Virus record (IMG/VR): IMGVR_UViG_3300022198_000011 | Direction: 5' to 3' (one strand) | Origin: an uncultured virus (IMG/VR IMGVR_UViG_3300022198_000011) | Lineage: Duplodnaviria > Heunggongvirae > Uroviricota > Caudoviricetes | DNA: 64,000 nt | Shown: in pieces, positions 205 to 24,224 of the stretch | Layout of the letters: each line of letters starts with the position of its first letter | Numbering within the stretch: position 1 is the stretch's first letter | Notes under the pieces: model-generated | The model's input: only the letters and a program-made list of their open reading frames with translations | The model's database searches: none | What the model was told of the DNA's origin: nothing | Made by a program: the position numbers and the translations under genes

Positions 205-729
205 ATGTCGGAAGCGTTTGAGCAGGCGTGGAGCGTCCTCAAGGCTCTCAACCCTGCTTTTCAGGACGACCCGAATGCTCCTGAGCAAGACTTGCGTCAT
301 TATCAAAACATGCAATCCATGCTCGACACCTACACGCCTCGTGGTAACACCAATCCACGGTGGCTTCAACCTGCTGGACACAAACCGCTCACGCCCTTCC
401 CGCAGGGCTTTGTTGACCTGAATCCGTGGATGGAAGCCGCCAATCTCGACCATCAAGCAAGGACATCTCGCAACCCCGCTGACGCTCGCATGTTTGCTCA
501 GCAGGCCATAGAGGCTCGCAACGCTCCCATAGCGGTTGAAGACCCCGAAGGAAGCCTCCCTGAAGCAATCCCATGGGAACAGGGCATCGACATGGAAGAG
601 ATACAGCGTTACCTTGCCGAAGCGCATCGACGCTCTATCGCTCCGCTCTCCTATCGTCGCAAAATCAAACCATTGAGCGATGAAGAAGTTGCTCGTGATT
701 TGAGGCGTCTGCGTGATTACAGGCGGTAA
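205..729 (+). CDS. Hypothetical protein with N-terminal AFxxAWxxLK tag
   Basis: Starts MSEAFEQAWSVLK at ATG 205, inside the 124..729 ORF; the same start is seen in the next gene. Confidence 0.75.
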   Translation: MSEAFEQAWSVLKALNPAFQDDPNAPEQDLRHYQNMQSMLDTYTPRGNTNPRWLQPAGHKPLTPFPQGFVDLNPWMEAANLDHQARTSRNPADARMFAQQAIEARNAPIAVEDPEGSLPEAIPWEQGIDMEEIQRYLAEAHRRSIAPLSYRRKIKPLSDEEVARDLRRLRDYRR

Positions 730-733
730 AAGC

Positions 734-1828
734 ATGTCGGAAGCGTTTGAGCAAGCGTGGTTGCTGCTTAAACAAGTCAATCGGCAGTCAAGGCTTCCCG
801 GCTACGAAGGGCAGATGATTGCTGATAGCAGGCGAAGCAGGCGAAGAGATGGCCGTGGCTTTGCGGATGAGGGGCCTCGTCAGATGGGGCCTTTCCTCGA
901 AGGTCTTGAAGAAGTTCTGAATAACCCACGGCAGCGTGAGCGTTATGTCGCCCGCAGAAGAATGCCTGCTCGCATCGTAAGGACATTTGAGAATCCAACT
1001 GCAGCAGGGTTTCAATTTGATGACGCTGTCACCTATGCCCTTGAAGACGAAGCAGGGGAACGGTTGGCTGAAATCCACACTAACAGAGAAAATCAAATCA
1101 GCGATTTTGCCGGTGAGGTCCCCGCACAGCATCGACGCAAGGGCTACTACCGTGAACTGATTGAAAATCTCATTCGGCATGGTTTCCCATTGACTTCACA
1201 TTCACGCAACGAAATGTCCGACCCGTTTCACAAAAAGTTCATTCGCACGCTACCTGACGACATAGATGTTAGCACGATATTTGATTCATCGGGTGACAGC
1301 GAATATGACGACCATCACTACACCCACGCTCCTTACTTCCCCGGCAAACACGGGCCGGGCGGCGATTGGGGCGACCTGCGCGGACCGCATCGTATCACCG
1401 TGCCCTTTTTTGACCGCTCAAGCGAGTCTTATCGAACTCGTGACCTTGAGGTGCCGGGACCAATAGCAGGAAGACCACATTACCATCGTAACCGGGACAT
1501 CATTGTCCCGACCGAGGCGGCTCGTGAAATCCTTGCTCGTGATAATGGTGGTTTTGACTATGAAAGACGAAGAGTGATTAACAGTCTAAAAAACGCACAG
1601 CGCGAAAAGGGGATAGATTCCCATTACAGCAATCCATCCTACGGGCTTGTGCAAGATGCGCCTATGCGTCTTCCCAATCCCGCTTACGGTTCGCGAATCT
1701 TTTCACAAAGTCGGCTTCCCGGTCTTTTGGAGTCAGACTACGCCGCTTGGGAGGCCAATCAACCGCTTTTCCCTATGGACGACGCATCGGAGATGGCTCG
1801 AAGGACACGGGCAAATTACATCCAATAA
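734..1828 (+). CDS. Tagged protein with a GNAT acetyltransferase-like segment
   Basis: Starts MSEAFEQAWLLLK; VPAQHRRKGYYRELIENL resembles the GNAT acetyl-CoA-binding motif A. Confidence 0.6.
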   Translation: MSEAFEQAWLLLKQVNRQSRLPGYEGQMIADSRRSRRRDGRGFADEGPRQMGPFLEGLEEVLNNPRQRERYVARRRMPARIVRTFENPTAAGFQFDDAVTYALEDEAGERLAEIHTNRENQISDFAGEVPAQHRRKGYYRELIENLIRHGFPLTSHSRNEMSDPFHKKFIRTLPDDIDVSTIFDSSGDSEYDDHHYTHAPYFPGKHGPGGDWGDLRGPHRITVPFFDRSSESYRTRDLEVPGPIAGRPHYHRNRDIIVPTEAAREILARDNGGFDYERRRVINSLKNAQREKGIDSHYSNPSYGLVQDAPMRLPNPAYGSRIFSQSRLPGLLESDYAAWEANQPLFPMDDASEMARRTRANYIQ

Positions 1829-1830
1829 TC

Positions 1831-1838
1831 TTTTATCA
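1831..1838 (+). promoter_or_regulatory. Archaeal TATA-like box for a leaderless transcript
   Basis: TTTTATCA begins 28 nt before ATG 1859; no SD sequence. Confidence 0.5.
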
Positions 1839-1858
1839 AGCAGCCTTGTCAGAAGTTT

Positions 1859-2287
1859 ATGGTCCGACCCTTTGACGCCGCTTGGTCCATCATCAAGCAA
1901 TACGATGTGAACTCCTATCGTGGTCAGCGCACGCTGGGCCGTGAAGGGCGCATGGCGCTTCGTGACGATGCTATGGCTGGCGCTAACGCATTCCATCAGG
2001 CCCGCATCGACGCTATGCGAAACTTGCCTGACCCCCGAGATAGCCGGGGTGCGTTTTCACAGCCCGGCGGCGAGCCATTCAACCCGTTCGTGGAGCAGGC
2101 TCCTGTAGCGGCCGCTCCTCGCCCCATCGACACCGATGTTCCTCTTGGCTCAACGGGCCAAACGATGCCGCTCTCAGCGGGCAAACCCCGTGAGATGCGT
2201 CGTGGAGAGCGAGCGCCAACGACACCTCGCCCCGGTTTCCGCACCCGTGAAGCCATGCCGTTAACTGATTATCACTTCGGAGAGTGA
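1859..2287 (+). CDS. Tagged hypothetical protein
   Basis: Starts MVRPFDAAWSIIK. Confidence 0.75.
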   Translation: MVRPFDAAWSIIKQYDVNSYRGQRTLGREGRMALRDDAMAGANAFHQARIDAMRNLPDPRDSRGAFSQPGGEPFNPFVEQAPVAAAPRPIDTDVPLGSTGQTMPLSAGKPREMRRGERAPTTPRPGFRTREAMPLTDYHFGE

Positions 2288-2292
2288 AACCC

Positions 2293-2823
2293 ATGAGAGC
2301 CTTTGACGCAGCATGGTCCGTTATCAAAGCGCTCCCTGAAGACCAAGTGTTTGAGCAAAGGGGCGATGGAAGGTTTGAAACACAGCCTACACAAGAGCGG
2401 TTTGGAACCGTTCACCCCGCAATTCGAGGATTGCTGCAACGCCTTCATCGTGGAGTTGGGCCGGATGGATATACGGACTTTAATCGGGCAAGACCTTCAA
2501 TGCAATTTGACCCTCCCCGACATTGGTCGTCACCCGGTCCAAAAATTGAAGACTTAGGCACACTCTACGAAGACCCTGTCGAAACCATAAAACCAAGTCC
2601 GGGCTCTTCTCAACACAGCCTTGATATTGCTCAAAGGTCACATGGTGTGAAAGAATTACCTTACTTTGAAGATGAAGACCAAAACCTTGCTTTCTTTGCT
2701 CAATATCCAACAAGAAGTCTCCGAGAAGCCGCAATTCGTCGGCGCGAACAAGGGCAACCTATGAGGCCGTCGCACATATTTTCTCGATTCAGCAGAGATT
2801 CTGTTCCTTACAGGGAGTTTTGA
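2293..2823 (+). CDS. Tagged hypothetical protein
   Basis: Starts MRAFDAAWSVIK; shares TVHPAIxG and PS..F with the next gene, so probably a distant paralog. Confidence 0.75.
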   Translation: MRAFDAAWSVIKALPEDQVFEQRGDGRFETQPTQERFGTVHPAIRGLLQRLHRGVGPDGYTDFNRARPSMQFDPPRHWSSPGPKIEDLGTLYEDPVETIKPSPGSSQHSLDIAQRSHGVKELPYFEDEDQNLAFFAQYPTRSLREAAIRRREQGQPMRPSHIFSRFSRDSVPYREF

Positions 2824-3377
2824 TGATGAGAGCCTTCGATGCAGCATGGTCTGTTCTCAAAGCGGACCCTCGTCAACGAATGTTTGGCCCTCCTTCGGGC
2901 GGGCCGGGGAACATCTCGGTCAGTCAAACAGTTCACCCTGCTATTGCCGGTATGGTTCAGCGGGCCACAGACCCGTATGGATTGCCGCCGTCAGTGAGCA
3001 AACCTTTCAATTTTGACTCAAGCCGACCGCGACCGTTCGACACCGTCACTCACACCAACCCACAGACCGGTGAAAGTCGCTCATCCGCTTCAGACCTTGA
3101 ACGAAGAAGTCTCAGCAATATCAATTCTTACGAAGCAGGGACTCCTCATTCAAAACTTATGACGGCTTTGGATAACGCCTTTGTTCCTGATTTTAGAGAA
3201 GGGGCTACGCTCAACCGACCACCTTATGTCACGAGTAGGCCCATGACACCGGAAGAGATTGCTACCGGTGAGCCGGATGCGACATCACCCATGGCTTTCA
3301 GAAACGATGTGAGGGAAAATAGGGAAGGACGAGAGTTCCGAGACAGCCTCAAAACAGCCCGTCAATACGGCCTTTGA
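2823..3377 (+). CDS. Tagged hypothetical protein
   Basis: Starts (M)MRAFDAAWSVLK; contains QTVHPAIAG. Confidence 0.75.
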   Translation: MMRAFDAAWSVLKADPRQRMFGPPSGGPGNISVSQTVHPAIAGMVQRATDPYGLPPSVSKPFNFDSSRPRPFDTVTHTNPQTGESRSSASDLERRSLSNINSYEAGTPHSKLMTALDNAFVPDFREGATLNRPPYVTSRPMTPEEIATGEPDATSPMAFRNDVRENREGREFRDSLKTARQYGL

Positions 3378-3416
3378 GTCAATAAGTTTAATTTCCACAC
3401 CGCCCTCGGCTCACAC

Positions 3417-3572
3417 ATGCTGTTGCCGACGCTGCTCTTCCTCTCTTTCATAGCGGGGTTTGTAACGATGTGGCTGGCTACCCCCGACCCCACTGACACT
3501 GTAGTTTTCATTGAAGACGAGGCGGCCTTTCACCAAGCCTGCTTCAACGGAATGCGGAGGGGCATCCAGTGA
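3417..3572 (+). CDS. Small 51-aa membrane protein (not in ORF track)
   Basis: MLLPTLLFLSFIAGFVTMWLATPDP...RRGIQ*; N-terminal hydrophobic helix; TTTAATTT at 3387; its stop overlaps the GTG of the next gene (GTGA). Confidence 0.6.
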   Translation: MLLPTLLFLSFIAGFVTMWLATPDPTDTVVFIEDEAAFHQACFNGMRRGIQ

Positions 3573-4414
3573 AAGTCACCGTCTACGAGGTCGGTCCTCG
3601 GGACGGTTTGCAGTCACTTTCGCATGTCGTGCCGACTGAAAAGCGTCGTGAACTCATCAATGCTCTCTACAACGCCGGTATCGAGCACATCGAGGAAGTT
3701 TCGTTCGTTCATCCCAAGATTTTGCCGCAAATGGCCGATGCCGAGGCGGTTTTCACAGGAAAAGGGTCGGTTTTGGTGCTCAATCAGCGTGGATTTGAGC
3801 GTGCGATGGCCTGCGGCGCTGAAAAAGTGAACATCGTCCTCTCACCGTGCGAAACATTCTGCATGCGCAACATGGGTAAGCGACATGGTGAGTTGATGCT
3901 TACTTATCGTCAAATGTTGAACAACTACTCCAAGGAAAAGGTCCGAGTCTACATCTCGATGGCCTTTGGAAGCCCTGATAGCGGCTCTTTTGGTCGAAAA
4001 CACCTGCAAAACATGGTTCGAGACGCCAAAATGTTCGGCGACACGGTGGTTTTTGCCGATACGGTCGGCTGTGCGAGTCCCAGCGACATCTCGGTAGCAG
4101 CATCGGTCGCTTTTGAAAATGAAATGACGCCAGCGCTGCATTTGCATCATCGTGGAGACGAATCACAGGCGATTTCACTCGTTCGAGCCGGTTTGCTTGC
4201 CGGAATCCGGCAATTTGACTCGTCCATCGGGGGTCTTGGTGGTTGCCCATTCGCTGAAGGCAGCGGTGCTAACCTTGCTACCGAAACATTGGTTCGCCAT
4301 CTCAACGCTTGGGGCTTTGAAACAGGCATTGACGAGCGTAGCCTGCAGGCTGCGGAGCAAATAGCGATGCGTCTCAAAAATGCTTTATCAAGCGACATCA
4401 TGACAGTGGTATGA
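3569..4414 (+). CDS. hmgL: Hydroxymethylglutaryl-CoA lyase (DRE-TIM metallolyase), auxiliary metabolic gene
   Basis: EVGPRDGLQ, SFVHPK..PQMAD, ADTVG, HLH and DSSIGGLGGCPFAEGSGANLATE motifs are all present. Confidence 0.92.
   Translation: MKVTVYEVGPRDGLQSLSHVVPTEKRRELINALYNAGIEHIEEVSFVHPKILPQMADAEAVFTGKGSVLVLNQRGFERAMACGAEKVNIVLSPCETFCMRNMGKRHGELMLTYRQMLNNYSKEKVRVYISMAFGSPDSGSFGRKHLQNMVRDAKMFGDTVVFADTVGCASPSDISVAASVAFENEMTPALHLHHRGDESQAISLVRAGLLAGIRQFDSSIGGLGGCPFAEGSGANLATETLVRHLNAWGFETGIDERSLQAAEQIAMRLKNALSSDIMTVV
4384..4401 (+). promoter_or_regulatory. TATA-like box plus shared AAGCGACATCAT element
   Basis: TTTATC-AAGCGACATCAT begins 27 nt before ATG 4411; the same 12-mer occurs at 6061-6072. 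Confidence 0.55.
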
Positions 4415-5142
4415 GCGGAGCCTTTGACGCAGCGTGGGCTGTGCTCAAGATGGCTCGCTACACCGCAGGCCCCTACGAGATTTGGGACAGCAACGAGCGT
4501 GTTCGTGGCTCTGAAGGCGATGCTCAATTTGCTCACCTACCGCAAACCTACACTGTGCCCAACTTCAAGCAAGATGAAGAAACAGGTGAGTGGATTGAAA
4601 GCGGAACAAGAGAAGAAAAGCAATACTACCCCATCGGTGAAAACTCGGGCTTTGAACTCAAAGCCGGTAAAATGATGATGACCCCCGAACAATTTCACCA
4701 ATTGGTAGGGGCTCCCGCACCCGAACACCGCTCAGGTCAACAAACGGCCATTCGTGAGTTTATGGACCAAGGTGCGCCGATTGCCGCCCCGTTCCTCAAA
4801 GTCATGCCCGAAGAAGGCGGTGGATTCAGAGTTGTAGGACACGAAGGTCGACATCGCATGCAGGCACTTCGTGATGCAGGCTACGGCGATGTCCCTGTTC
4901 CGATTGAATTGCAGAGTAGCAAATACCTCTTCGGTCATGACATGACCAATGAGAAGTTAAGAGAAGCATTGATGAACGCTATCCTGCGTCCCGAATACGG
5001 TTACTACGGAGCAGATGAACTCGCACAAGCACGCTCACATCATGACGCTGATGAAGAATACCGAATGGGTTTGCATCGGCTCAATAAGCCTCTGTTAATC
5101 AACAACATCGACCCCGTGTGGACACGAGGTGAATACCGATGA
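4411..5142 (+). CDS. Tagged protein with ParB/Srx-like N-terminal-fold domain
   Basis: Starts MSGAFDAAWAVLK; FRVVGHEGRHRMQALRDAGYGDVPV matches the ParB/Srx GxxR signature. Confidence 0.7.
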   Translation: MSGAFDAAWAVLKMARYTAGPYEIWDSNERVRGSEGDAQFAHLPQTYTVPNFKQDEETGEWIESGTREEKQYYPIGENSGFELKAGKMMMTPEQFHQLVGAPAPEHRSGQQTAIREFMDQGAPIAAPFLKVMPEEGGGFRVVGHEGRHRMQALRDAGYGDVPVPIELQSSKYLFGHDMTNEKLREALMNAILRPEYGYYGADELAQARSHHDADEEYRMGLHRLNKPLLINNIDPVWTRGEYR

Positions 5143-6041
5143 GGGCTTTTGATGCAGCATGGGCTGTGTTGAAGGCGGAAAAAGTGAGCGTTTCAGGATT
5201 ACCCATGGGTGAAGGGTCGTTCCGACAGGTCTTTCCAAACAGAAGGAACAGGAACGAAGTCATCAAACTCCCTAACATGGGCGGGCAGCAAATGACAAAC
5301 ATCGCCGCCATGGACGCCTTGGCTCAACTGGGTTATCCGGTCATGCCTGAAACACCGGTTTTAGCCTACAAAATTGGAGGCACTGTGCAAGGTCCTTACC
5401 CCGGAACAACGCAGCCGAGAGCGAACGCTGTGGTGTCGGATGAAAAGGCTCGTTTGTCAAACGACCCCGACACTACATGGCAAGAGCAAACTGATTTTCA
5501 GAATCAATTCAGAGACACAGTGCGGCACCCGCTCATTACCTACGGGCCGATTCAGGACCCCTTGATGCAGGCCATAGGCGTTACGGATGTTCGTGAAGCA
5601 AACACGGGCATTTACGACGATGGTATGAAAGCCATTGACTTTGAAGTGATGAATCTTGGCGCTCATAGAGAGCCAACTTACGATGAAAATGGTCAGAAGT
5701 GGGCATCGACGATGCCTCGTTTGAAAGATTGGTTGAAAGTGCCCGATGAGCAACGACGCAGTTTCATCAACATTTACGGGGACACTTCACGCTTTGAGCC
5801 TTGGAATGACGCTCGCAACCCTCGCACGGGGTATCTTGGAACACAAGAAGAACTCTACAGAAGAGGGCTTCGTAACCTCCAATTGATGAACGACATGATT
5901 GACAACCCTGAGCAGCGTCGTTTGTTTGAGTTTGTTGGTGAAGAGGAAAAAGACCGCGGTGAAAGTGAGTATTACTGGGGTCAGAAACTTGGTGCTCAAA
6001 AATGGCGAGACATGATTCAAAATCGAGAGCCAGTGGAGTAG
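5139..6041 (+). CDS. Tagged protein with a protein-kinase-like fold
   Basis: Starts MRAFDAAWAVLK; MGEGSFRQV (Gly loop), VIK, DVREAN (DxxxxN) and AIDF occur in canonical order. Confidence 0.65.
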   Translation: MRAFDAAWAVLKAEKVSVSGLPMGEGSFRQVFPNRRNRNEVIKLPNMGGQQMTNIAAMDALAQLGYPVMPETPVLAYKIGGTVQGPYPGTTQPRANAVVSDEKARLSNDPDTTWQEQTDFQNQFRDTVRHPLITYGPIQDPLMQAIGVTDVREANTGIYDDGMKAIDFEVMNLGAHREPTYDENGQKWASTMPRLKDWLKVPDEQRRSFINIYGDTSRFEPWNDARNPRTGYLGTQEELYRRGLRNLQLMNDMIDNPEQRRLFEFVGEEEKDRGESEYYWGQKLGAQKWRDMIQNREPVE

Positions 6042-6054
6042 CCAGCGCAACCGC

Positions 6055-6072
6055 TATATGAAGCGACATCAT
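6055..6072 (+). promoter_or_regulatory. TATA-like box plus shared AAGCGACATCAT element
   Basis: TATATG-AAGCGACATCAT begins 27 nt before ATG 6082. Confidence 0.55.
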
Positions 6073-6081
6073 CGCAGTTGC

Positions 6082-6423
6082 ATGAGCCGTGCTTTCGCTG
6101 CCGCCTTTGACCTCATCAAAATGAATCACTTCAACGCCACCTACGGTGCTGCGTTATTCGATGCCTTGCTCATGAAGGCCTTGGACGACGGTGTGCTGCG
6201 TAAGAACATTCAGGATTACATGCACATGTCTCTTGCCGAACTGGCGGATTTGCCTCCTGAAGAAAAGGAATATGCTTTCAGTCTCCTTCAGGAGCACCTT
6301 GCCGCTCAACCCAAGGCGACGGAAAACCCTGAGGGCGAAACCCCCGCTCCCGAAGACGCTGTGCCTGAGCCTGTCGCCAAAGCCTTCTACTCGGTGATGA
6401 ACGATTACTTTGGCTTGTTGTGA
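6082..6423 (+). CDS. Small acidic protein with a variant tag
   Basis: Starts MSRAFAAAFDLIK; internal LLMKA and VAKA. Confidence 0.7.
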   Translation: MSRAFAAAFDLIKMNHFNATYGAALFDALLMKALDDGVLRKNIQDYMHMSLAELADLPPEEKEYAFSLLQEHLAAQPKATENPEGETPAPEDAVPEPVAKAFYSVMNDYFGLL

Positions 6424-6429
6424 TGTCCA

Positions 6430-9399: not shown

Positions 9400-9404
9400 G
9401 CCCC

Positions 9405-9545: not shown

Positions 9546-9577
9546 CTACCTGCTCAGTGCCCTCACCAGTGGTCGCT

Positions 9578-10147: not shown

Positions 10148-10152
10148 AGTGC

Positions 10153-14629: not shown

Positions 14630-16046
14630 GGGCATGATGGGTCGTGGCTCGGACACCCGCATCTACGCTCCACGCTCCGAGTCTTCGCACATGTTCCGTG
14701 CAAACCACGAAGACGAGGAAACCCCTACTGGCTTGGAAGATGCTCGTGACAAAGAAGCACGGATGGACCGCAAGCAGAAAAAGCAGGAGCGGGAAGAAAA
14801 GGAGGACCGTCAGATTCGACACATCAAGGTGCGTCGTCATCACATGGGTCTTGGTGACAAACCCGAAGAGGGAATGGAAGAAGAAGAGTCTTTGTTCAAA
14901 CCTCGTGAGTCACCCACTGAACCAACGCAACCTGCTGGTGCCGGTGGATTCTTGACCAGCCTCGCTGCTCAGGCTAAGGGCCCCGGTGCTGCCGGTGGTG
15001 AAATGATTCAGATGAGTGAGTCGATGGCTTACGCTTGGTCTGATATTCTCAAGTTCGACCGTTCGGATGAGTTGTATGAACTTGCTATGGAAGCCATGGC
15101 TTTGGGTTATGCTGATAATTTGGAGGATGCTTACAAAATCGCTGAAGAAGAGGCTGAGTTGACTGCTCGTATGCCTTTACCACCCGAACTCGATGATTCC
15201 ATTCCTGACCCTGAGTTTGACCCCCAGTTCCAACAGAAGAACGCCAGTGAGCCGATGGTCTACGCTTGGTCTGAATTGTTGAAGTCCAAGCGTAAGCAAG
15301 AGAAGCGTCGTAAGACTGAAGAGCGAGCCAAGTGGCGGCCCTCCACTGGTAAGTTCAAGCGTCCTCGTGGCGGCTACACCGGTCGCTCAGGCACCTCGGC
15401 TCGGGCTAAATTGTTGTCTCGCAACCTCCCCATGGGTCGCAAGACGGGGTTGATGCAACCTCACTTGTCAGTTGAGATGTCTCACCGCGGTATCGCCAGT
15501 AAGCAGCCAATGTCCAAGGACCCTCAGGCCTACGGACAGTGGCGAGGCTACCAAGAGCAGCAGAGCATTCGTGGTCAAATTGCTCCTCAAAGCGGAGCGG
15601 CACTGCCCTTTGGGCAGGTTCGGATGCCCAGCGCCCCTCGACCTCGTCTTCATCCTGTTCGTGCTCCCCCAATTCAGCCGCCTAAGATGCGCATGCCTCA
15701 CTTAAACCGACCAAGTATGCCGGGTATGGTGACCATGAGCGAAGACCCTGTGCCTGAAGGTGACCTCCTGAAAGCGGGCACAAATCACTACCTTCTTGCT
15801 GAAGCCCGCACTGCTCTCCGTGAAATGCGACAACTCATGCGTCGCATGAAAGACAAGGATGACAAAAAGAAAAACATGGGTGCGCCTGACACCGCTGGTG
15901 CGGCGTCAACGCTACCAAAATACCCCGGTAACAATCCAAAGCAAACCACTCGTGGTGAAGGAGGGACGGAAGACGAAAACGACCCTCGAACATGGGGACT
16001 TGACCCCATTGGACAACTCGTCGGACGAGGGGGTAACCGAGCATGA
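14622..16046 (+). CDS. Multi-module protein with two internal tags
   Basis: GGAGGTGA SD; ESMAYAWSDILK (15018) and EPMVYAWSELLK (15249); alternating acidic and very basic blocks. Confidence 0.75.
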   Translation: MTEGMMGRGSDTRIYAPRSESSHMFRANHEDEETPTGLEDARDKEARMDRKQKKQEREEKEDRQIRHIKVRRHHMGLGDKPEEGMEEEESLFKPRESPTEPTQPAGAGGFLTSLAAQAKGPGAAGGEMIQMSESMAYAWSDILKFDRSDELYELAMEAMALGYADNLEDAYKIAEEEAELTARMPLPPELDDSIPDPEFDPQFQQKNASEPMVYAWSELLKSKRKQEKRRKTEERAKWRPSTGKFKRPRGGYTGRSGTSARAKLLSRNLPMGRKTGLMQPHLSVEMSHRGIASKQPMSKDPQAYGQWRGYQEQQSIRGQIAPQSGAALPFGQVRMPSAPRPRLHPVRAPPIQPPKMRMPHLNRPSMPGMVTMSEDPVPEGDLLKAGTNHYLLAEARTALREMRQLMRRMKDKDDKKKNMGAPDTAGAASTLPKYPGNNPKQTTRGEGGTEDENDPRTWGLDPIGQLVGRGGNRA

Positions 16047-18382: not shown

Positions 18383-19653
18383 TGAGTAAAGTCCTCGTGC
18401 TGAAATCGTTTGAACTCTACGCTGACCCTGCGGGAAACTTGACTCAGCAGCAACTAATTGGCGGCCCTGCTCCGAAAGGGTTGCCGCTGGAAGCGCAGAC
18501 GCAGCGAACGCCCGAAGAAGTCTATGTCGCAAGGCGAGATGCGGCACTCACCGCTCCTAACTTGGAAGGTGCTGCTTCGCCTTCTGAGTTTGAAGACCCT
18601 GACCTCGCCGCTCAGCAGCGGCGGGAACTTGCTGAAATGAAGCGCAAGGTCAAAGCCGGTGAGTTTCGTAGTCATCAAGAGCGCTACGGACATCAGGGCT
18701 TCGCTGGCGTTGTTGAAGGGGGTAGGAGAGGACGACAAGGACCGATGACTGAACAGCAGATAGGTGACGCTCGCACTGCTGGTCAACGGGCAGGTAAGGT
18801 CGGCGTCTTTGGGCGAAGGCTTGGTGCTGGTCTTGCCGGAGCACTCGGTGGCCTCTCGGCTGTCACTGCGCTTGAGCAGGCCGGGGCGTCAGGTGCAGGT
18901 CTTGAACAGGGTCTTGGCTCGGCTGCTATTCGGGGGATGACAACCACCAGTGCTGCTCGCCCTCATCTTGAAAGCGCTGCTGGTGCAGCGGGAGCACGCC
19001 TTGGCGCTGGTTCAGTTGGTGTTCAACGCAGAGCCCAGCAAGGTTTGGAGCGAGGGCGTCAGGCTTTGGAAAACCGTCGTGCAAATCGTGTAGCCGTCGC
19101 TCAGCCCACCGTGGCTCAACCCACACCTGCACCTGTCCCGTCAGGTCCTACTCCCCCTCCTTACGCCGAATACCGAGCCGGTCTTGAGGCTGAGCGAGCC
19201 CGACTGCAAAGGGCTCTTCAATACAACCTGCCCGGCACGCTACGAGGGGCAGAGCAGCGTTTGATTGGTGTTGAACGACTCCTCAACCCAACCACAGCGA
19301 GGCAACCGTTTGACATGCGAGGAGGCGCTTACAACACCGATGTTTTCGAGCCCGTGCCTCAATTTAACCCAGCATCACGAGCGCCCAATGACCCAAATCA
19401 AACACAACTACCCGGTGCACCTGTCACGGCATCGCCAACCACCGCTTCATCGACGGAGCAAAGCAAACTCCCCATACCCCCCAAGACGGCGGAAGGTATG
19501 GCTGCTGCGTTTCCTCAATCAACTGCTGCTGACCCGTCAGATGGAATTGCTGAGCCAACGACTGGTAAAGACGCTGCTGAAGCAGGTGCCGCTCTTGCTG
19601 AAAAGTTCAGTGGGAAGAAGCAAAACATGTCGACAATGGGGGTTGAGGAATGA
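18382..19653 (+). CDS. Gly/Ala-rich hypothetical protein
   Basis: Starts MSKVLVLKS; LGAGLAGALGGLSAV glycine-zipper-like segment. Confidence 0.7.
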   Translation: MSKVLVLKSFELYADPAGNLTQQQLIGGPAPKGLPLEAQTQRTPEEVYVARRDAALTAPNLEGAASPSEFEDPDLAAQQRRELAEMKRKVKAGEFRSHQERYGHQGFAGVVEGGRRGRQGPMTEQQIGDARTAGQRAGKVGVFGRRLGAGLAGALGGLSAVTALEQAGASGAGLEQGLGSAAIRGMTTTSAARPHLESAAGAAGARLGAGSVGVQRRAQQGLERGRQALENRRANRVAVAQPTVAQPTPAPVPSGPTPPPYAEYRAGLEAERARLQRALQYNLPGTLRGAEQRLIGVERLLNPTTARQPFDMRGGAYNTDVFEPVPQFNPASRAPNDPNQTQLPGAPVTASPTTASSTEQSKLPIPPKTAEGMAAAFPQSTAADPSDGIAEPTTGKDAAEAGAALAEKFSGKKQNMSTMGVEE

Positions 19654-21134
19654 GCGACAAGTCTGCTGAGATGCAAGAACTTGTCATCGAGATGGACAAG
19701 AAAATGTCCGCTCGGTCGTTCAAATACTTCTTTGAGACGGTGCTTGAGTTCGACTATGCTAACCACCACGGCATGTGGGACAAGGGATTGGCTGACAACC
19801 GCTACTACTGCGTGAAGGCATCTCGTGACCACGGTAAGTCCGTGTTCTTCATGTCCTACGCCCTGTGGATTGCTGCTTTCAATCCCGGCACGCACATCAT
19901 GATTTTCTCTCACTCGTTGGAGCAGACGCTTGAGCACATGCGTTTCATCCGACAGAACATTCAGAACTCACCGTGTTTGAAGGATTTGATTCCCTCGGGT
20001 AAGCCATGGCGTAAGACCTACTTCGAGTTCACCAACGGTAGCCGTATCATGGCCAAGTCAGTCGGTGGTGGAACTCGTGGTTTCCACCCGGATGTTGTGT
20101 TGTGTGACGACATTCTGTGGGGAACCACTGGGTCTGAACTGCAGCGTGCTGCAGACTGGTTTTACGGTGTTTTGCTTCCTGTTCTCCACCACACGGGTCG
20201 CTTGATGATGGTGGGCACACCGTTCAGTTACAACGACCTGTATGCTCAACTTGAGAAGACGGAGACATTTGTCGTTGAAACCTACCCTGCTATCAACAGG
20301 GAAGGTGTGGCTCTGTGGCCTGAGCGTTGGAACCTTGAAGCACTCGACCAGCGGCGCATGTCGATGCCTGCTATTCAGTTCACTCGTGAGTATCTCTGTG
20401 AACCAATTCACGATGTCGCCAGTATGTTCCCAATGACGCTGCTTGAAAAGGCCCGTGACCATGAACTCAAACTTCTCGATGTCGCTGACGCTGAGTATGA
20501 TGAGAACGGTGAGCGAGTCGGTGTGCTCGGTCATCATTTCATTGGTTGGGACACGGCCATCGCATCGGACAAGAACGCTGACTACACAGCCATAACAGTT
20601 TTACGCACGCTACCTGACGAAGATGTCAAGCAAATCGTGGGCAGTGTGCACGAGCAAGGTATGGGGTCAGCAGCACAGAAGCGAGCCATCATCCTTCTCA
20701 ACAACAAGTTTCAGCCCGACCTCATCGAACTCGAAGGTAACAACTTCCAGCGTATGTTCGCTATGGAACTGCAGGATATTCGCCAAGATATTCCAATCCG
20801 CACTTTCATGACGACTCGCACCCGCAAGGAGAGTTTGTTTATGTCACTCTTGATGGCGTTTGAACAGGGTCAAATTAAGACGCCTTACGGTGACGACCGC
20901 TCTCGTCGTTTTACGCACAAACTCGAAGAGGAATTGACCCGCTTCGGTATGCAGAAGAATGGACGACTCGAAAGCGTAGGTGTGCATGATGACCTCGCCA
21001 TGTCCCTCGCTCTCGCCAACTGGGCGACCAAAGAGTTCCGAGGAAGCGTAGTGATGCTTGATGATTACATGCCCGGATTCGATGATTGGCTCACGGGCGA
21101 ACCAAGAAAAAATGATGGATGGATGATACCATGA
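19650..21134 (+). CDS. terL: Terminase large subunit
   Basis: Walker A ASRDHGKS, Walker B VVLCDD, VGTP, LWPERW, nuclease GWDTA...DYTA and HDDLAMSLALA. Confidence 0.95.
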   Translation: MSDKSAEMQELVIEMDKKMSARSFKYFFETVLEFDYANHHGMWDKGLADNRYYCVKASRDHGKSVFFMSYALWIAAFNPGTHIMIFSHSLEQTLEHMRFIRQNIQNSPCLKDLIPSGKPWRKTYFEFTNGSRIMAKSVGGGTRGFHPDVVLCDDILWGTTGSELQRAADWFYGVLLPVLHHTGRLMMVGTPFSYNDLYAQLEKTETFVVETYPAINREGVALWPERWNLEALDQRRMSMPAIQFTREYLCEPIHDVASMFPMTLLEKARDHELKLLDVADAEYDENGERVGVLGHHFIGWDTAIASDKNADYTAITVLRTLPDEDVKQIVGSVHEQGMGSAAQKRAIILLNNKFQPDLIELEGNNFQRMFAMELQDIRQDIPIRTFMTTRTRKESLFMSLLMAFEQGQIKTPYGDDRSRRFTHKLEEELTRFGMQKNGRLESVGVHDDLAMSLALANWATKEFRGSVVMLDDYMPGFDDWLTGEPRKNDGWMIP

Positions 21135-22552
21135 AGGAAGAAAAAGTTGGAAAGAAAGGCAAGGGCATGGTCCTCGTTATCTCTGTAGGGAAACCCTCAG
21201 ACAAGAATCCTGCAAACGCTGCTGACCCGGACAAGCAAGAAAAGATGGACCAACTTAGCAGCGAACTCTCAAGACGCGGAAAAGTTTTGTCAAATGCAAA
21301 CGCTCGCATGGGCGCTGGGCGACAAGTTAGGAATCAAGTTCGTTACCAACAAGGTGACCTCGACGACCCCAACGCTGAACCTGAAGAAGAAGCCCCAAAA
21401 CTCGCTGATGATGTTTCAATCGGTCACAGTGGGCGACGAGGAAGTAAAGAAGAGGCTGAGGCTTTTGAGAGCGGCAAGCCGTTGATGCAGCGTCTACAAG
21501 AAGAAGAGGACAGAAAGAAGCCTCAAACAGAAGAAGAAGACCTCTACGCCAACATCTTCGACAGTATGAAGCGAGCCAGTTTTGACGCAACCGACCCCTA
21601 CGCTGGTTTTCATGTAGAACCTCCTGCTTCCTCAAGTCCTGCAGATGTAGAGGCTTTTCGTGAAAGAACACGGCAGAAACTGAAAGAGATGAAAGAGCAG
21701 GGATTGATTCATCCTACTGAAAGCAACCCTGCAGGATTACCACCACCCACCCTCGCTCAAGAACGAATGGGAACCTCCCTTACTCCCGCCTTCATATCAA
21801 AAGCCACTCCGGCTGAACTCATGGAAGAAGCACAACGCTTGCGTGAAGCCGGTGAGAAGGGACAGGCTCGTCGTTTCAGCGATGTTGCTTCACAAATGGA
21901 GCGAGGTCCAGCCCTTGCTGAGTCAACCATCAGTCGTCTCGGTATGCAGGCTGCTCAAGCCCTCGACCCTGAAGAGGAAGACCAAGAAGCCTTTGCTCGC
22001 TTCCTTTATGGTGAGGGTAAAGCCGGTGCTGATTATCAAGACATGCGTCTGAATCCAAACTTCTACGACCCCGCCCAGCGTCGTGAGTTCATGCGACTTA
22101 TGTCGCAAATACAGCGACAGAAGAATCGTGCTGACTCTATGGGTGCTGAGGGAGAAGCGCAACTTGCAGCACTACGAGAGGAAGACCCGACTCAGTTCTT
22201 TGCTGACCAAGACATGGTGCAGCGGGCTTATCCTTCACCGGCTGACCTCGCATGGGTGGTTTTGAAAGCGCAAAAGCGTGACCCTCGTCTCGCTCGTGCC
22301 GGTGTGAGTGGATTCAACAAACCCAAGCGAACGCCCAAGCATCCGAAAAAGAGCCATGTTGTCGTGGCTCGGGAAGGTGGGAAGGTCAAAACTATTCGCT
22401 TCGGTCAGCAAGGTGTTTCAGGCTCTCCTAAGAAACAGGGCGAGTCTTCCTCATACCGCAAGCGTCGTGAGTCGTTCAAGGCCCGTCACGCCAAAAACAT
22501 CAACCGTGGAAAATTGAGTGCTGCATACTGGGCTGATAAAGTAAAGTGGTGA
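21131..22552 (+). CDS. Acidic protein with an internal tag followed by a basic C-terminal phage domain
   Basis: PADLAWVVLK at about 22238, then KTIRFGQQG...RRESFKARH...SAAYWA. Confidence 0.72.
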   Translation: MKEEKVGKKGKGMVLVISVGKPSDKNPANAADPDKQEKMDQLSSELSRRGKVLSNANARMGAGRQVRNQVRYQQGDLDDPNAEPEEEAPKLADDVSIGHSGRRGSKEEAEAFESGKPLMQRLQEEEDRKKPQTEEEDLYANIFDSMKRASFDATDPYAGFHVEPPASSSPADVEAFRERTRQKLKEMKEQGLIHPTESNPAGLPPPTLAQERMGTSLTPAFISKATPAELMEEAQRLREAGEKGQARRFSDVASQMERGPALAESTISRLGMQAAQALDPEEEDQEAFARFLYGEGKAGADYQDMRLNPNFYDPAQRREFMRLMSQIQRQKNRADSMGAEGEAQLAALREEDPTQFFADQDMVQRAYPSPADLAWVVLKAQKRDPRLARAGVSGFNKPKRTPKHPKKSHVVVAREGGKVKTIRFGQQGVSGSPKKQGESSSYRKRRESFKARHAKNINRGKLSAAYWADKVKW

Positions 22553-22558
22553 AATCGC

Positions 22559-22720
22559 ATGTCCTCAGCCTTTGACATTGCTTTTGACGACCTTCGCAAG
22601 AAGTTGTGTCCTGAAGGCAAGGCAGCGGCCAAGAGGAAGTTCAAGGTCTACCCGTCAGCCTACGCCAACGGATGGGCCGTGCAATACTGCAAGGGTAAGT
22701 TCAGGGGGAAGAAGAAGTGA
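22559..22720 (+). CDS. 53-aa basic tagged protein (not in ORF track)
   Basis: MSSAFDIAFDDLRKKLCPEGKAAAKRKFKVYPSAYANGWAVQYCKGKFRGKKK*; GGTGA SD; GTGA overlap with the next gene. Confidence 0.75.
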   Translation: MSSAFDIAFDDLRKKLCPEGKAAAKRKFKVYPSAYANGWAVQYCKGKFRGKKK

Positions 22721-23319
22721 ACCCGTTTGATTTTGCGTGGCTTTTATTGAAAGGGGATGTGAGCGCTCGTAGTGTAATCGGGTATCAGCACCTCCCTACT
22801 GAGATGAACTACGATGCAATTTCACAATTCCTTCAAAATAACCCCAATTCTACTCTTGGAGATATGATGACTCCTTATCTTACTGGTCAATTCACTCAGC
22901 CTACTTCAGAAGTGGTCACCGACCCTCGTTCGTATCAAGACGGTAGTCTACCCTTTCCTATGACCGCTCAAGAGGCTGAGTCTTTTACGGGTCAGTTCAA
23001 AACTCCCGATGGTTATGCTTTACCTGAGCGTTACATGGCAGCGGGTCGCGGTGGACCTACAGACCGTCCTTTGTTGATGAATACGCTACGCACACTTCAG
23101 GGAAGGATGCGTCAAATGCCTGAAGCCTTTGCATTTGAGCCTGTAGAAAGTCGTATCAGAGGAGGACAGGAAGACTCTCGCCCTACTGGTAAAATGGGTC
23201 GTCTCGGTGCGAGACTTGAAAATTATATGAACACCCCAATATCAGTGCGTCAGGCGACAATGGACCCTTCTTCTATGATGGGCGCATCTAACACTCAAAT
23301 GGTAGGGGTGACTGCGTGA
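22717..23319 (+). CDS. Tagged hypothetical protein
   Basis: Starts MNPFDFAWLLLK. Confidence 0.72.
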   Translation: MNPFDFAWLLLKGDVSARSVIGYQHLPTEMNYDAISQFLQNNPNSTLGDMMTPYLTGQFTQPTSEVVTDPRSYQDGSLPFPMTAQEAESFTGQFKTPDGYALPERYMAAGRGGPTDRPLLMNTLRTLQGRMRQMPEAFAFEPVESRIRGGQEDSRPTGKMGRLGARLENYMNTPISVRQATMDPSSMMGASNTQMVGVTA

Positions 23320-24224
23320 CCGACCGCTGCACTTGTCACGATGTCCTTGTCATCAAGGATTTGAACCGTTGGTTCAAGGAAAAGTGGGTGGATGTTTCAC
23401 GCAAGGACAAAGACGGCAAGCATCCGCCATGCGGTCGTTCCAAAGCCAACACTTCAAGCAAGGGCTACCCGAAGTGTCGCCCATCCGTCAAGGTCAGCGA
23501 CAAGACACCAAAGACCAGTGGCTCCATGAGCGAAGGGCAAAAGCGTGCGGCGACTAAGCGTAAGCGAGCCAAGAAGCAGGGTGTCGGCGGTAAACCGACG
23601 ATTGTCAAGGCCGACTACCAATACGACATCACCGATGACCGCATCGTGACGGGCGAACCAATGGACATCGCTATGCGGTTGCTCAAGACTCGTATCGCAT
23701 CACCGGATGAAGACCATCCTCAAATTGGCAGAACTGTGTATGACCCCGAAACGAATGAAGTTTTAGATTCATCAGTAAGACTCATGCCGACCAAACATGG
23801 TAGGCATAACGAACCCGAAAACTTCATCCGTGATGTAATACATGAAGATATGCACACAGCAACATTACCCGAAGTAGGTCATAGCAATATCGTCCATGCG
23901 GAGTTCCCTGCATTTTTGGGTGAAGAAGTGTATTCACAAAGATTGGCAGAAGAAGGTAAATCAGAAAGGCGACGAGAACCTTATGATTTAGAAAGAACAA
24001 CTCCTTTCAATCAAGCATTGTATCGTGTGAGCCAACACCCTAATGTTCCCGCTGAAGATAGGGCAAAAGCGAAACAATTGTGGTTTAACACCATACAGAC
24101 AGGTGAACCAATGGACCTCTCTTGGCGACTACTCAAGCGACCAGTCAGTCCCGAGGCCAAGCGAGCCAAGAAGCAAGGTGTTGGCGGTAAGCCGACCGTC
24201 GTGAAGATGGTGGGCGTTAAATAG
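23316..24224 (+). CDS. Basic phage domain plus a tag-bracketed HExxH module
   Basis: LNRWFKEKWVD...CGR...YPKCRP; TGEPMDIAMRLLK; VIHEDMH; TGEPMDLSWRLLK; KRAKKQGVGGKPTxVK twice. Confidence 0.75.
   Translation: MTDRCTCHDVLVIKDLNRWFKEKWVDVSRKDKDGKHPPCGRSKANTSSKGYPKCRPSVKVSDKTPKTSGSMSEGQKRAATKRKRAKKQGVGGKPTIVKADYQYDITDDRIVTGEPMDIAMRLLKTRIASPDEDHPQIGRTVYDPETNEVLDSSVRLMPTKHGRHNEPENFIRDVIHEDMHTATLPEVGHSNIVHAEFPAFLGEEVYSQRLAEEGKSERRREPYDLERTTPFNQALYRVSQHPNVPAEDRAKAKQLWFNTIQTGEPMDLSWRLLKRPVSPEAKRAKKQGVGGKPTVVKMVGVK
23562..24206 (+). repeat. Two pairs of in-frame direct repeats
   Basis: 48-nt repeat at 23562-23609 and 24159-24206; 39-nt tag repeat at 23649-23687 and 24099-24137. Confidence 0.85.

What the first reader, a model, noticed from the sequence alone, without database searches (positions are those of the whole stretch)
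205..24137. A recurring AWxxLK peptide tag on unrelated cargo domains: candidate capsid-targeting and processing system
Seen: ten genes begin with the same ~12-aa amphipathic motif ending in Lys and then diverge: 205 MSEAFEQAWSVLK, 734 MSEAFEQAWLLLK, 1859 MVRPFDAAWSIIK, 2293 MRAFDAAWSVIK, 2826 MRAFDAAWSVLK, 4411 MSGAFDAAWAVLK, 5139 MRAFDAAWAVLK, 6082 MSRAFAAAFDLIK, 22559 MSSAFDIAFDDLRK, 22717 MNPFDFAWLLLK. Seven more copies are internal: 7060, 7822, 15018, 15249, 22238, 23655, 24105. Synonymous codons vary between copies, so conservation is largely at the protein level. Established: T4 internal proteins carry a short N-terminal capsid-targeting sequence removed by the prohead protease. Inference: this is an analogous address label that loads a variable set of effectors into an archaeal virus head for delivery at infection. 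I do not know of a description of this motif.
Basis: partly seen in the sequence, partly recalled or inferred. Interest (0 to 1): 0.93.

Follow-up and report, generated by a model that had tools for sequence, protein, structure and literature searches.

The report
Shared address tag on magrovirus proteins
Fourteen mostly unrelated, fast-changing genes beside the head-building genes of this ocean archaeal virus carry the same 12-residue peptide, which most likely docks them into the virus head for delivery into the host, though no loading or cutting has been measured.

Summary
They lie in frame in 14 genes on one strand, and there is no further copy in the rest of the 106-kb genome. Counts are 16 regex matches against 0.18 expected. 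Conservation is at protein level.

The window is a magrovirus-like archaeal tailed virus. The consensus is [SG]-E-P-[MF]-[DE]-x-A-W-x-L-L-K. It occurs at N-termini, internally and, in relatives, at C-termini. It is invariant within cargo families that have otherwise diverged to 33% identity. It is an unstructured appendage in a fold model.

Tagged genes turn over much faster than their untagged neighbours. One cargo is kinase-like and one looks ParB/Srx-like. The tag loosely resembles a W-centred C-terminal tail shared by the protease-scaffold and a 109-aa head protein.

Best reading, about 50%: a portable docking peptide that loads a variable cargo set into the procapsid, possibly trimmed by the head protease. 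Receptor, packaging, cleavage and ejection are all inferred. I found no description in the magrovirus papers searched. This would be a new variant of the T4/P1 capsid-targeting principle.

The parts
205..243 (+). N-terminal tag of gene 205-729 (174 aa, no known family)
734..772 (+). N-terminal tag of gene 734-1828 (364 aa, no known family)
1859..1897 (+). N-terminal tag of gene 1859-2287 (142 aa, Pro/Arg-rich)
2293..2328 (+). N-terminal tag of gene 2293-2823 (176 aa; paralogue of the next gene over about 80 aa)
2826..2861 (+). N-terminal tag of gene 2826-3377 (183 aa)
4411..4449 (+). N-terminal tag of gene 4411-5142 (243 aa). ParB/sulfiredoxin-like is a lead only. 18 of the 19 aligned family members, window copy included, carry the tag.
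5139..5174 (+). N-terminal tag of gene 5139-6041 (300 aa, protein-kinase-like). The tag is invariant in 12 of 12 homologues and unstructured in the fold model.
6082..6120 (+). N-terminal tag (F in place of W) of gene 6082-6423 (113 aa, acidic)
7057..7092 (+). Internal tag 1 of the 989-aa protein 6430-9399
7819..7854 (+). Internal tag 2 of the 989-aa protein 6430-9399
15015..15053 (+). Internal tag 1 (W-x-x-x-L-K variant) of the 477-aa protein 14613-16046
   Evidence: coordinates worked out by hand
15246..15284 (+). Internal tag 2 (W-x-x-x-L-K variant) of the 477-aa protein 14613-16046
   Evidence: coordinates worked out by hand
22232..22267 (+). Internal tag of protein 21119-22552. It lies directly before the C-terminal basic domain, which matches phrog_7595 from residue 385.
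22559..22600 (+). N-terminal divergent tag (A-F-D-D-L-R-K) of the 53-aa basic protein 22559-22720. The phrog_27331 / DUF5872 N-part starts right after it. Orthologues in 53 relatives carry A-[WF]-D-x-L-[EQR]-K-K.
22717..22752 (+). N-terminal tag (GTG start) of gene 22717-23319 (200 aa)
23652..23687 (+). Internal tag 1 of protein 23316-24224 (its N-terminal 100 aa match the DUF5872 C-part)
24102..24137 (+). Internal tag 2 of protein 23316-24224
27854..27883 (+). W-centred C-terminal tail (M-T-W-D-E-I-H-E-M-A) of the 109-aa head-module protein 27587-27916. This protein is a candidate scaffold, and the tail may use the same receptor as the tag.
   Evidence: coordinates by hand
35320..35349 (+). 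Matching tail (M-S-W-E-E-V-H-Q-L-A) at the C-terminus of the S78 prohead protease with scaffold-like extension, 33979-35373
35413..36585 (+). Major capsid protein (HK97-type; 34% identical to the HVTV-1/HCTV MCPs). Candidate receptor, not shown.
19650..21134 (+). Terminase large subunit. It marks the late arm that holds the tagged genes.
25470..27179 (+). Portal protein

Best explanation
The tag is a portable docking peptide of about 12 residues, with consensus [SG]-E-P-[MF]-[DE]-x-A-W-x-L-L-K and hydrophobic residues at i, i+3, i+4 and i+7. It probably becomes an amphipathic helix only when bound.

Mechanism proposed:
- The tag addresses a large, fast-evolving set of soluble viral proteins to one common viral receptor during head assembly.
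- That receptor is most likely the inside of the procapsid, either the MCP inner face or the scaffold core.
- The protease-scaffold and the 109-aa head protein appear to be addressed to the same compartment by their own W-centred C-terminal tail.
- Cargo would be trapped when the shell closes, possibly trimmed by the S78 prohead protease next to the invariant Lys, and released into the archaeal host with the DNA.
- Multi-tag proteins would be several cargo modules strung together, each with its own tag.

Shown here: the motif, its protein-level selection, its portability between unrelated domains and positions, the hypervariability of its carriers, its restriction to the late arm, and its spread through the clade.

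Inferred: the receptor, packaging, cleavage and ejection.
For: 1. Non-random, protein-level motif.

2. Context. All 14 carriers lie on the strand and arm that hold TerL, portal, S78 protease, MCP, tail tube and tape measure. The opposite-strand part of the remaining 42 kb holds PolB, RFC-like clamp loader, SNF2, ERCC4, PD-(D/E)XK and thermosome, and no copy lies anywhere in those 42 kb.

3. Selection and portability.
- In the kinase-like family the tag residues M1 F4 A7 W8 V10 L11 K12 are invariant in 12 of 12 sequences, while identity elsewhere falls to 33%.
- In the ParB-like family 18 of 19 carry the tag.
- PHROG/Pfam families that exist without a tag begin exactly after the tag here: phrog_27331 at residue 14, and phrog_7595 at residue 385 just after the tag.
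- Among 102 unique instances from 4 genomes and 80 loci, 39 are N-terminal, 52 internal and 10 C-terminal (one met none of the three position rules), and nothing is conserved after the Lys.

4. The tag is an appendage. Residues 1-28 of the kinase-like protein have pLDDT below 50 and no secondary structure, in a model with mean pLDDT 70.

5. Carriers are hypervariable. The 13 tagged genes scored have a homologue in a mean of 1.38 of 3 sister genomes, mostly short and 25-41% identical. The 13 interspersed untagged genes score 2.77 and the 19 structural genes 2.84. This is the pattern of the T4 internal proteins as described in PMC3012670 (passages).

6. Cargo types fit packaged effectors.
- Kinase-like: invariant G-x-G-x-x-R, D..N and D-F-E; all 50 top Foldseek hits are protein kinases at E about 1e-3, TM about 0.3; Atlas leads.
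- ParB/Srx-like lead at score 0.90. ParB/Srx domains occur in capsid-packaged phage proteins such as P1 DdrB (PMC5512222, passages).

7. A W-centred tail, M-[STD]-W-[EDS]-[ED]-I-H, ends the 109-aa protein in 81 of 81 homologous ORFs found in 83 sources. A matching tail ends the protease-scaffold in 4 of 4 genomes and 70 of 80 MCP loci. Similar tails occur in a distant clade and in HVTV-1. A generalised pattern Phi-[AST]-W-x-x-[ILV]-[KRH] hits 10 tags, both tails and only 2 other sites in 100 products, against 0.9 expected. That pattern was written after seeing the tails.

8. Clade-wide. About 8, 13 and 10 copies occur in three sister genomes. Of 45 strict hits around TerL, 44 are on the TerL strand. 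One exact 30-nt degenerate form occurs at 49 sites in 41 IMG/VR contigs; my rough chance estimate is about 0.05.
Against: - No direct evidence exists for binding, packaging, cleavage or ejection.
- The resemblance between tag and scaffold tail covers only 4-5 residue classes and was recognised post hoc.
- The nearest cultured relative, HVTV-1, has no such tag in its first 100 kb, so nothing can be transferred from its virion proteomics.
- Many carriers are low-complexity, Pro/Arg/Glu-rich proteins with no recognisable enzyme, so 'effector' is unproven for most.
- Internal and C-terminal copies do not fit a simple cleavable N-terminal leader.
- In sister genome G004, 3 of 10 copies lie outside the block upstream of TerL, at 68 kb and 96-97 kb. 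I did not examine them.
- One natural homologue of the ParB-like cargo has a different N-terminus (P0308).
- Host proteomes were not searched, so a host-derived motif is not excluded.
Confidence: 0.5

Rival explanations
1. The tag is a short linear motif that binds a conserved host hub protein after ordinary intracellular expression. It would recruit many different viral proteins to one host machine, with no role in packaging.
For: It behaves like a SLiM: short, disordered when unbound, position-independent, and carried by hypervariable proteins.
Against: - All carriers sit in the late/structural arm and none among the replication-arm genes, where takeover functions would more usually be expected; expression timing was not measured.
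- The tag resembles the tail of the virus's own head proteins.
- Multi-tag strings of modules are hard to explain this way.
- Not tested directly.
Confidence: 0.15
2. The tag docks proteins to another virion or assembly component, such as the portal, the conserved 1857-aa protein between portal and protease, or a tail or baseplate part. Carriers would be minor structural or decoration proteins and not internal cargo.
For: Same late-arm context. Some carriers lie between TerL and portal. Phages with several tailspikes use conserved N-terminal adaptors on otherwise unrelated proteins (recalled, not checked here).
Against: Carriers are small, often disordered, and turn over far faster than any structural gene. 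A kinase-like and a possibly ParB-like domain are not typical structural parts. None of the recognised tail genes carries the tag.
Confidence: 0.12
3. The tag is a recognition handle for the virus-encoded group II chaperonin (thermosome), or another folding or proteolysis factor, that services a set of difficult viral proteins.
For: The genome encodes a full-length Cpn60/TCP-1 chaperonin (E 1.6e-122).
Against: I know of no precedent for a linear chaperonin tag (recalled). Many carriers look intrinsically disordered. The MCP, the classical chaperonin client in phages, has no tag.
Confidence: 0.05
4. The tag is a membrane-binding amphipathic helix that takes the carriers to the host membrane.
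For: Hydrophobic residues at i, i+3, i+4 and i+7 with a terminal Lys.
Against: Conserved acidic residues (Glu at -2, Asp/Glu at +1) give the tag a net charge of about zero. It occurs in the middle of long soluble proteins. No transmembrane segments accompany it.
Confidence: 0.04
5. The shared segment has no function of its own. It would be a remnant of common ancestry or a DNA-level recombination joint that shuffles gene modules.
For: Two carriers are paralogues. Modules are clearly reshuffled between genomes: the DUF5872-like domain is N-terminal here but internal in a 747-aa four-tag ORF in G003.
Against: Third codon positions are near random (0.37) while the peptide is kept. The tag is the most conserved stretch in families that have diverged to 33% identity. 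Most carriers share nothing else.
Confidence: 0.04

Closest known systems
Capsid targeting sequence (CTS) of phage T4 internal proteins IPI-III and Alt (PMC3012670, passages read; Mullaney and Black 1996, seen only as a reference in PMC9024508)
   Same: A short conserved peptide is the only shared part of a highly diverse, fast-evolving set of proteins encoded near head genes. In T4 it encapsidates them into the scaffolding core, and the cargo counters host defences. The virus also has a prohead protease.
   Different: - I know of no sequence relationship (T4 CTS recalled, not compared).
- The T4 CTS is N-terminal and removed by the gp21 protease. Here the tag is also internal and C-terminal, and cleavage is unknown.
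- The protease is S78 (HK97-type), not the T4 gp21 family (recalled).
- The host is an archaeon.
- There are many more carriers: 14 genes in this genome.
N-terminal packaging signal of phage P1 DarB (PMC9024508, abstract and passages)
   Same: An N-terminal stretch of 30 residues or fewer is sufficient to take a large anti-restriction protein, and a reporter, into the capsid. A ParB/Srx-type domain (DdrB) belongs to the same packaged set (PMC5512222).
   Different: The paper reports no consensus among the N-termini of the Dar proteins. Here one consensus is shared by all carriers.
Encapsulin cargo-loading peptides (recalled; the review PMC11664910 was seen only in the search listing)
   Same: A short terminal peptide docks unrelated cargo enzymes to the inner face of an HK97-fold shell. 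It is portable and can be fused to foreign proteins.
   Different: Encapsulins are cellular nanocompartments without DNA, portal or protease. Their peptides are usually C-terminal with a different consensus. The docking site in this virus is unknown.
Polyvalent proteins of phages and conjugative elements (PMC5512222, passages)
   Same: Arrays of conflict-related domains (ParB/Srx, kinases, peptidases) are encoded next to virion genes and predicted to travel with the DNA. Some are processed proteolytically. Multi-tag proteins here look like strings of modules.
   Different: Polyvalent proteins are single giant polypeptides with no described common address peptide. Here most modules are separate small genes, each with its own tag. 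This genome's MPTase-PolyVal/ArdC-N protein lies in the replication arm and has no tag.

Membership tests
T4-type capsid targeting sequence system | A short conserved peptide is the only shared part of otherwise unrelated, polymorphic proteins | tested here: met
   Only 2293/2826 and weakly 205/734 share more than the tag.
T4-type capsid targeting sequence system | The peptide is at the extreme N-terminus of the precursor | tested here: not met
   10 of 17 copies here are N-terminal and 7 internal. Of 102 instances in the clade, 39 are N-terminal, 52 internal and 10 C-terminal.
T4-type capsid targeting sequence system | The peptide is removed by the prohead protease at its consensus site | not testable with these tools
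   An S78 protease is present. The Lys is nearly invariant (94 of 102), but no residue after it is conserved. 'L-L-K'-like strings near the MCP N-arm and the protease-scaffold junction are not significant, and K-A-D in the MCP is simply conserved.
T4-type capsid targeting sequence system | Carriers are present inside virions and the peptide is sufficient to load a foreign protein | not testable with these tools
   There is no cultured magrovirus and no proteomics was examined.
T4-type capsid targeting sequence system | Sequence homology to the T4 CTS or to the T4 gp21 protease | not tested
   The T4 sequences were not fetched. The protease here matches Peptidase_S78.
Encapsulin-type cargo-loading peptide | The peptide binds the inner surface of an HK97-fold shell protein | not testable with these tools
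   The MCP is HK97-type by family match. Docking of the tag to it needs an experiment.
Magrovirus (Magrovirales-like marine archaeal tailed virus) | Genome of about 100 kb with terminal redundancy; MCP, portal and protease nearest to haloarchaeal siphoviruses at about 33% identity; own replication module with PolB, clamp loader and related genes | tested here: met
   The unit is 106,358 bp with a repeat of about 702 bp. The MCP is 34% identical to HVTV-1/HCTV. PolB, RFC-like, SNF2 and thermosome are present. This matches the description in PMC5434244 (passages). The host was not tested here.
Protein-kinase-like fold (cargo 5139-6041) | Gly-rich loop, catalytic Asp/Asn loop, DFG-like motif and bilobal fold | tested here: met
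   Invariant G26, R29, D150, N155 and D167-F168-E169 in 12 of 12 sequences. AF2 model pLDDT 70, pTM 0.75. All 50 top PDB hits are kinases, but weakly (best E 9.6e-4, TM about 0.3). There is no Pfam hit.

The most novel reading that the evidence does not exclude
Magroviruses use one peptide code both as the docking helix and as the processing mark for a capsid-borne arsenal.
- About one gene in seven is a cargo module.
- Modules are freely shuffled, fused into multi-tag polyproteins and cut apart inside the head by the S78 protease.
- The tag works by mimicking the W-centred tail through which the scaffold and the protease themselves enter the shell.

This would be the first protein-delivery addressing system described for an archaeal virus. 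It would also be a ready-made handle for loading foreign proteins into HK97-type shells.
Probability: 0.3. Interest if true: 0.85.

Novelty: new variant of a known kind. Interest (0 to 1): 0.72.

Why it matters
Magroviruses are described as abundant viruses of one of the most abundant archaeal groups of the surface ocean (abstract of PMC5434244), and most of their genes have no known function.

- A single recognisable tag would assign a common fate, loading into the head and delivery to the host, to about 14 genes per genome and to hundreds across the clade.
- It would point to the proteins that act first in infection, such as kinase-like and possibly ParB-like enzymes and small basic domains.
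- It would show that the T4/P1 strategy of injecting a polymorphic protein arsenal also exists in archaeal viruses.
- Practically, a 12-residue tag that loads cargo into an HK97-type shell could be tested with recombinant procapsids, without culturing the virus.

Tried and rejected
- **Complex prediction**. MCP with a 124-row alignment, plus residues 1-32 of the kinase-like cargo. Verdict: 'no answer', score 0.00 in both runs, controls not run. This is neither for nor against binding.
- **Host census.** The single genome-contig scan went to the viral thermosome in the hope of reaching a Poseidoniales genome handle. It returned only a probably mis-binned 9.6-kb contig and an Altiarchaeales contig. 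The genome search needs a genome handle as centre (error). The motif's frequency in host proteomes therefore stays untested.
- **Cleavage logic.** I looked for 'L-L-K'-like sites in the MCP N-arm, the protease-scaffold junction and the small head protein. Within the clade the MCP N-terminus is too conserved to be informative. Across 124 diverse MCPs only K-A-D is conserved. I dropped this as evidence.
- **HVTV-1.** It has no tag system in its first 100 kb; the last 2.3 kb were not fetched.
- **A distant MCP (P0151) as a bridge to another clade**. This gave one usable 10-kb fragment (L191) with a similar protease tail but no tags. That is too little to test covariation between tag and tail.
- **Family searches on the carriers.** Pfam at E up to 5 and NCBIfam found nothing beyond DUF5872.
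- **Literature.** 'HVTV-1' with 'N-terminal sequencing' gave 0 papers. 'DUF5872' gave 1 irrelevant paper.
- **Coordinate script.** The coordinates of four parts (15015-15053, 15246-15284, 27854-27883, 35320-35349) were worked out by hand and could be off by a codon.

Full report
**What the window is.** The window is the late arm of a head-tailed archaeal virus. Pfam and PHROGs identify these genes, all on the + strand:
- terminase large subunit, 19650-21134
- portal, 25470-27179
- Peptidase_S78 prohead protease with a long coiled-coil-like C-terminal extension, 33979-35373
- HK97-type major capsid protein, 35413-36585
- tail tube, 40516-42534
- tape measure, 43679-45016
- a 5660-aa ORF, 46264-63246

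The MCP's only relatives among 50,697 phage records are haloarchaeal siphoviruses (HVTV-1, HCTV-1/5; 33-34% identity) and one Methanofastidiosa virus.

The window is contained in a 107,060-bp IMG/VR record (G001, CheckV 100%). It runs across that record's ends, giving a unit of 106,358 bp with a repeat of about 702 bp. The remaining 42 kb is transcribed mostly from the other strand. It holds PolB, an RFC-like clamp loader, SNF2 helicase, ERCC4 and PD-(D/E)XK nucleases, an ArdC-N/MPTase-PolyVal protein and a full-length group II chaperonin. This matches the published description of magroviruses (PMC5434244, passages). The host assignment to Marine Group II archaea comes from that literature and was not tested here.

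**The observation.** All 17 copies are present, on one strand, in frame in 14 genes.
- A loose regular expression matches 16 of them in the 27 products of 205-25473, against 0.18 expected from residue shuffles (maximum 3 in 500).
- Over six frames of the whole genome it matches 18, against 3.55 +/- 1.87.
- No copy lies in the structural genes downstream of 25 kb or in the remaining 42 kb of the genome.
- Third codon positions of the nine core codons are 37% identical between copies, against 64% for positions 1+2. The invariant Ala uses all four codons.
- Nine of the ten N-terminal copies start within -4 to +40 nt of the preceding stop, so they are real N-termini.
- Apart from 2293/2826 (42% over 83 aa) and a weak 205/734 match, the carriers share nothing else.

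**Anatomy of the tag.** I collected 102 unique convincing instances from four complete genomes and 80 TerL-centred loci. The consensus is [SG]-E-P-[MF]-[DE]-[IL]-A-[WFM]-[RQ]-L-L-K (Ala 90/102, Lys 94/102, Pro 62/102). No position after the Lys is conserved.
- 39 instances are N-terminal, 52 internal and 10 within 12 residues of a stop.
- In N-terminal copies the initiator Met simply replaces what precedes S-E-P in internal copies.
- The hydrophobic residues fall at i, i+3, i+4 and i+7, after a Pro that could start a helix.
- AlphaFold2 leaves residues 1-28 of the kinase-like carrier without structure (pLDDT below 50) next to a reasonably modelled domain (mean pLDDT 70, pTM 0.75).

Together these features describe a tethered short linear motif that would fold on binding. 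It is not part of the cargo fold.

**Selection and portability.**
- In the family of carrier 5139-6041 (12 sequences, down to 33% identity), M1 F4 A7 W8 V10 L11 K12 are invariant.
- In the family of 4411-5142, 18 of 19 start with the tag. One (P0308) has an unrelated 95-residue N-terminus.
- The 53-aa basic protein 22559-22720 has orthologues in 53 of 83 sources, all with a variant A-[WF]-D-x-L-[EQR]-K-K.
- Families that exist elsewhere without a tag begin right behind it here: phrog_27331 at residue 14, and phrog_7595 at residue 385 just after the tag at 375-386.
- The DUF5872-like domain at the N-terminus of 23316-24224 sits behind an internal tag inside a 747-aa four-tag ORF in sister genome G003.

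Modules and tags are therefore reshuffled as units.

**Carriers evolve fast.** The three sister genomes have TerL 76-91% and MCP 76-93% identical to this one. Against them, the 13 tagged genes scored have a detectable homologue in 1.38 genomes on average, and three have none. Matches are mostly short, at 25-41% identity. The 13 untagged genes interleaved with them score 2.77, and the 19 structural genes 2.84. The sister genomes nevertheless carry about 8, 13 and 10 tags of their own, on other proteins, mostly in the 20 kb upstream of TerL. Three copies in G004 lie elsewhere, and I did not follow them up. Around TerL, 44 of 45 strict hits are on the TerL strand. One exact degenerate 30-nt form of the internal tag occurs at 49 sites in 41 contigs of IMG/VR; my rough chance estimate is about 0.05.

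**What the cargo is.** Most carriers have no family match, even at permissive thresholds. Several are rich in Pro, Arg and Glu with strongly negative hydropathy.
- **5139-6041 is protein-kinase-like.** It has an invariant Gly-rich loop, D150..N155 and D167-F168-E169. ESM Atlas gives leads to Kinase-PolyVal, T7 kinase and APH. All 50 top Foldseek hits in the PDB are kinases, but weakly (best E 9.6e-4, TM about 0.3).
- **4411-5142 may be ParB/sulfiredoxin-like.** It has an invariant H-E-G-R-H-R-M-Q-A-L-R-D-A-G block and an Atlas lead at 0.90. This is a lead only.
- **Three carriers hold small basic domains** of the DUF5872 / phrog_7595 / phrog_27331 / phrog_23735 kind, of unknown function.

ParB/Srx domains and kinases are among the domains that Iyer and co-workers found in phage proteins predicted or known to be packaged in capsids, such as P1 DdrB (PMC5512222, passages).

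**A second shared motif.** The 109-aa protein 27587-27916, just after the portal, and the protease-scaffold both end in a W-centred tail (M-T-W-D-E-I-H-E-M-A and M-S-W-E-E-V-H-Q-L-A).
- The tail is present in 81 of 81 homologues of the small protein found in 83 sources. It is also present at the protease C-terminus in 4 of 4 genomes and 70 of 80 MCP-centred loci.
- A similar tail ends the protease-scaffold of a distant clade (K-M-P-W-N-E-L). HVTV-1 has a similar string close to its C-terminus (K-S-W-E-Q-E).
- In HK97-type systems, scaffold and protease are taken into the shell through terminal segments (recalled). This tail is therefore a good candidate for that role.
- The cargo tag resembles it in residue class at five of seven positions: aliphatic, small, Trp, x, x, aliphatic, basic/His.
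- A pattern written to cover both hits 10 tags, the two tails and only two other sites in 100 products, against 0.9 expected. Because the pattern was written after the fact, I treat this as a resemblance and not a test.

Earlier notes of this scan on other magroviruses made the same suggestion. Those notes are unchecked and are not independent evidence.

**Mechanism.** The best-supported reading is that the tag docks a variable cargo set to a common viral receptor in the assembling head. The cargo would then be enclosed and delivered with the DNA, as for the T4 internal proteins and P1 DarB.

The reading differs from T4 in three ways. The tag works from any position. Many carriers hold several tags. 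The protease is of the S78 type.

Whether the protease cuts at the tag is open. The near-invariant Lys and the tag-domain-tag-domain strings suggest it. No conserved residue follows the Lys, however, and I found no independent cleavage evidence.

Rivals that remain are a host-hub-binding motif, docking to another virion part, a chaperonin handle, and a membrane helix. A functionless remnant or DNA-level joint is disfavoured.

**Novelty.** Searching three magrovirus papers for 'N-terminal', 'motif', 'prohead' and, according to the paper, words such as 'paralog', 'internal', 'signal', 'targeting', 'scaffold' or 'peptide' found no mention of such a tag (PMC5434244, PMC11706807, PMC10160649). A full-text search for 'archaeal virus' / 'capsid targeting' / 'N-terminal' / 'cargo' listed nothing relevant among the 10 of 62 hits shown. 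Supplements were not read. The principle is known from T4 and P1. A clade-wide, position-independent tag on about one gene in seven of an archaeal virus appears to be undescribed.

Noticed in passing
window 27854-27883 and 35320-35349: A W-centred C-terminal tail (M-[ST]-W-[ED]-[ED]-[IV]-H-x-[LM]-A) is shared by a 109-aa protein after the portal and by the protease-scaffold. It is conserved in all 81 homologues seen. Similar tails occur in a distant clade (L191) and in HVTV-1. It is probably the signal that takes scaffold and protease into the shell.
   Followed up: partly
window 3569-4414: An HMGL-like (HMG-CoA lyase / pyruvate carboxyltransferase family) gene sits untagged in the middle of the tagged block (Pfam E 2e-24). 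It is conserved in 3 of 3 sister genomes at 45-67% identity. It is a possible auxiliary metabolic gene.
   Followed up: no
window 10418-11143: A conserved untagged protein (74-87% identity in the sister genomes) has a P-loop and a D-x-x-G-Q motif, with a weak small-GTPase match (TIGR00231, E 6.5e-4). This would be a Ras/Arf-like GTPase in a virus late arm.
   Followed up: no
window 12315-12986: This protein has a Gln/Met/Gly-rich low-complexity N-terminal half followed by a conserved C-terminal half. It is conserved in 3 of 3 sister genomes and its function is unknown.
   Followed up: no
window 46264-63246: A single 5660-aa ORF lies downstream of the tape measure. It is 70% identical over 5735 aa in sister genome G002. 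It is presumably a giant tail or fibre protein.
   Followed up: no
window 28409-33982: A conserved 1857-aa protein lies between the portal module and the protease. It occupies the place where HVTV-1 has its 1313-aa gene 115 (annotated 'zeta toxin') and its 'head assembly' gene. There is no family match here. It may be a large packaged or head-assembly protein.
   Followed up: no
window 22559-22720 and 23316-24224: Pfam DUF5872 is split. Profile positions 9-40 match the 53-aa protein and positions 55-114 match the N-terminus of the gene after next, with an unrelated tagged gene (22717-23319) in between.
   Followed up: partly
window 24247-25473: A 408-aa protein between the tagged block and the portal matches an HNH endonuclease family (phrog_5046, E 1.4e-8). 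It is conserved in 3 of 3 sister genomes.
   Followed up: no
window 42546-43082: A SAP (DNA-binding) domain protein lies in the tail module (Pfam E 6e-12).
   Followed up: no
G001 record outside the window (full-genome coordinates 68314-69789 and 97021-97971, minus strand): The virus encodes a full-length group II chaperonin (Cpn60_TCP1, E 1.6e-122) and an ArdC-N + MPTase-PolyVal protein. Neither carries the tag.
   Followed up: partly
L191 4409-7282: The portal gene of a distant relative is 957 aa long. It appears to hold an intein-like insertion: a Cys-led block ending in H-N before the portal sequence resumes.
   Followed up: no
L187: A thermosome gene 49% identical to the viral one lies on a 9.6-kb contig binned into a 'Parvibaculum sp.' MAG. 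It is probably a mis-binned viral contig.
   Followed up: no
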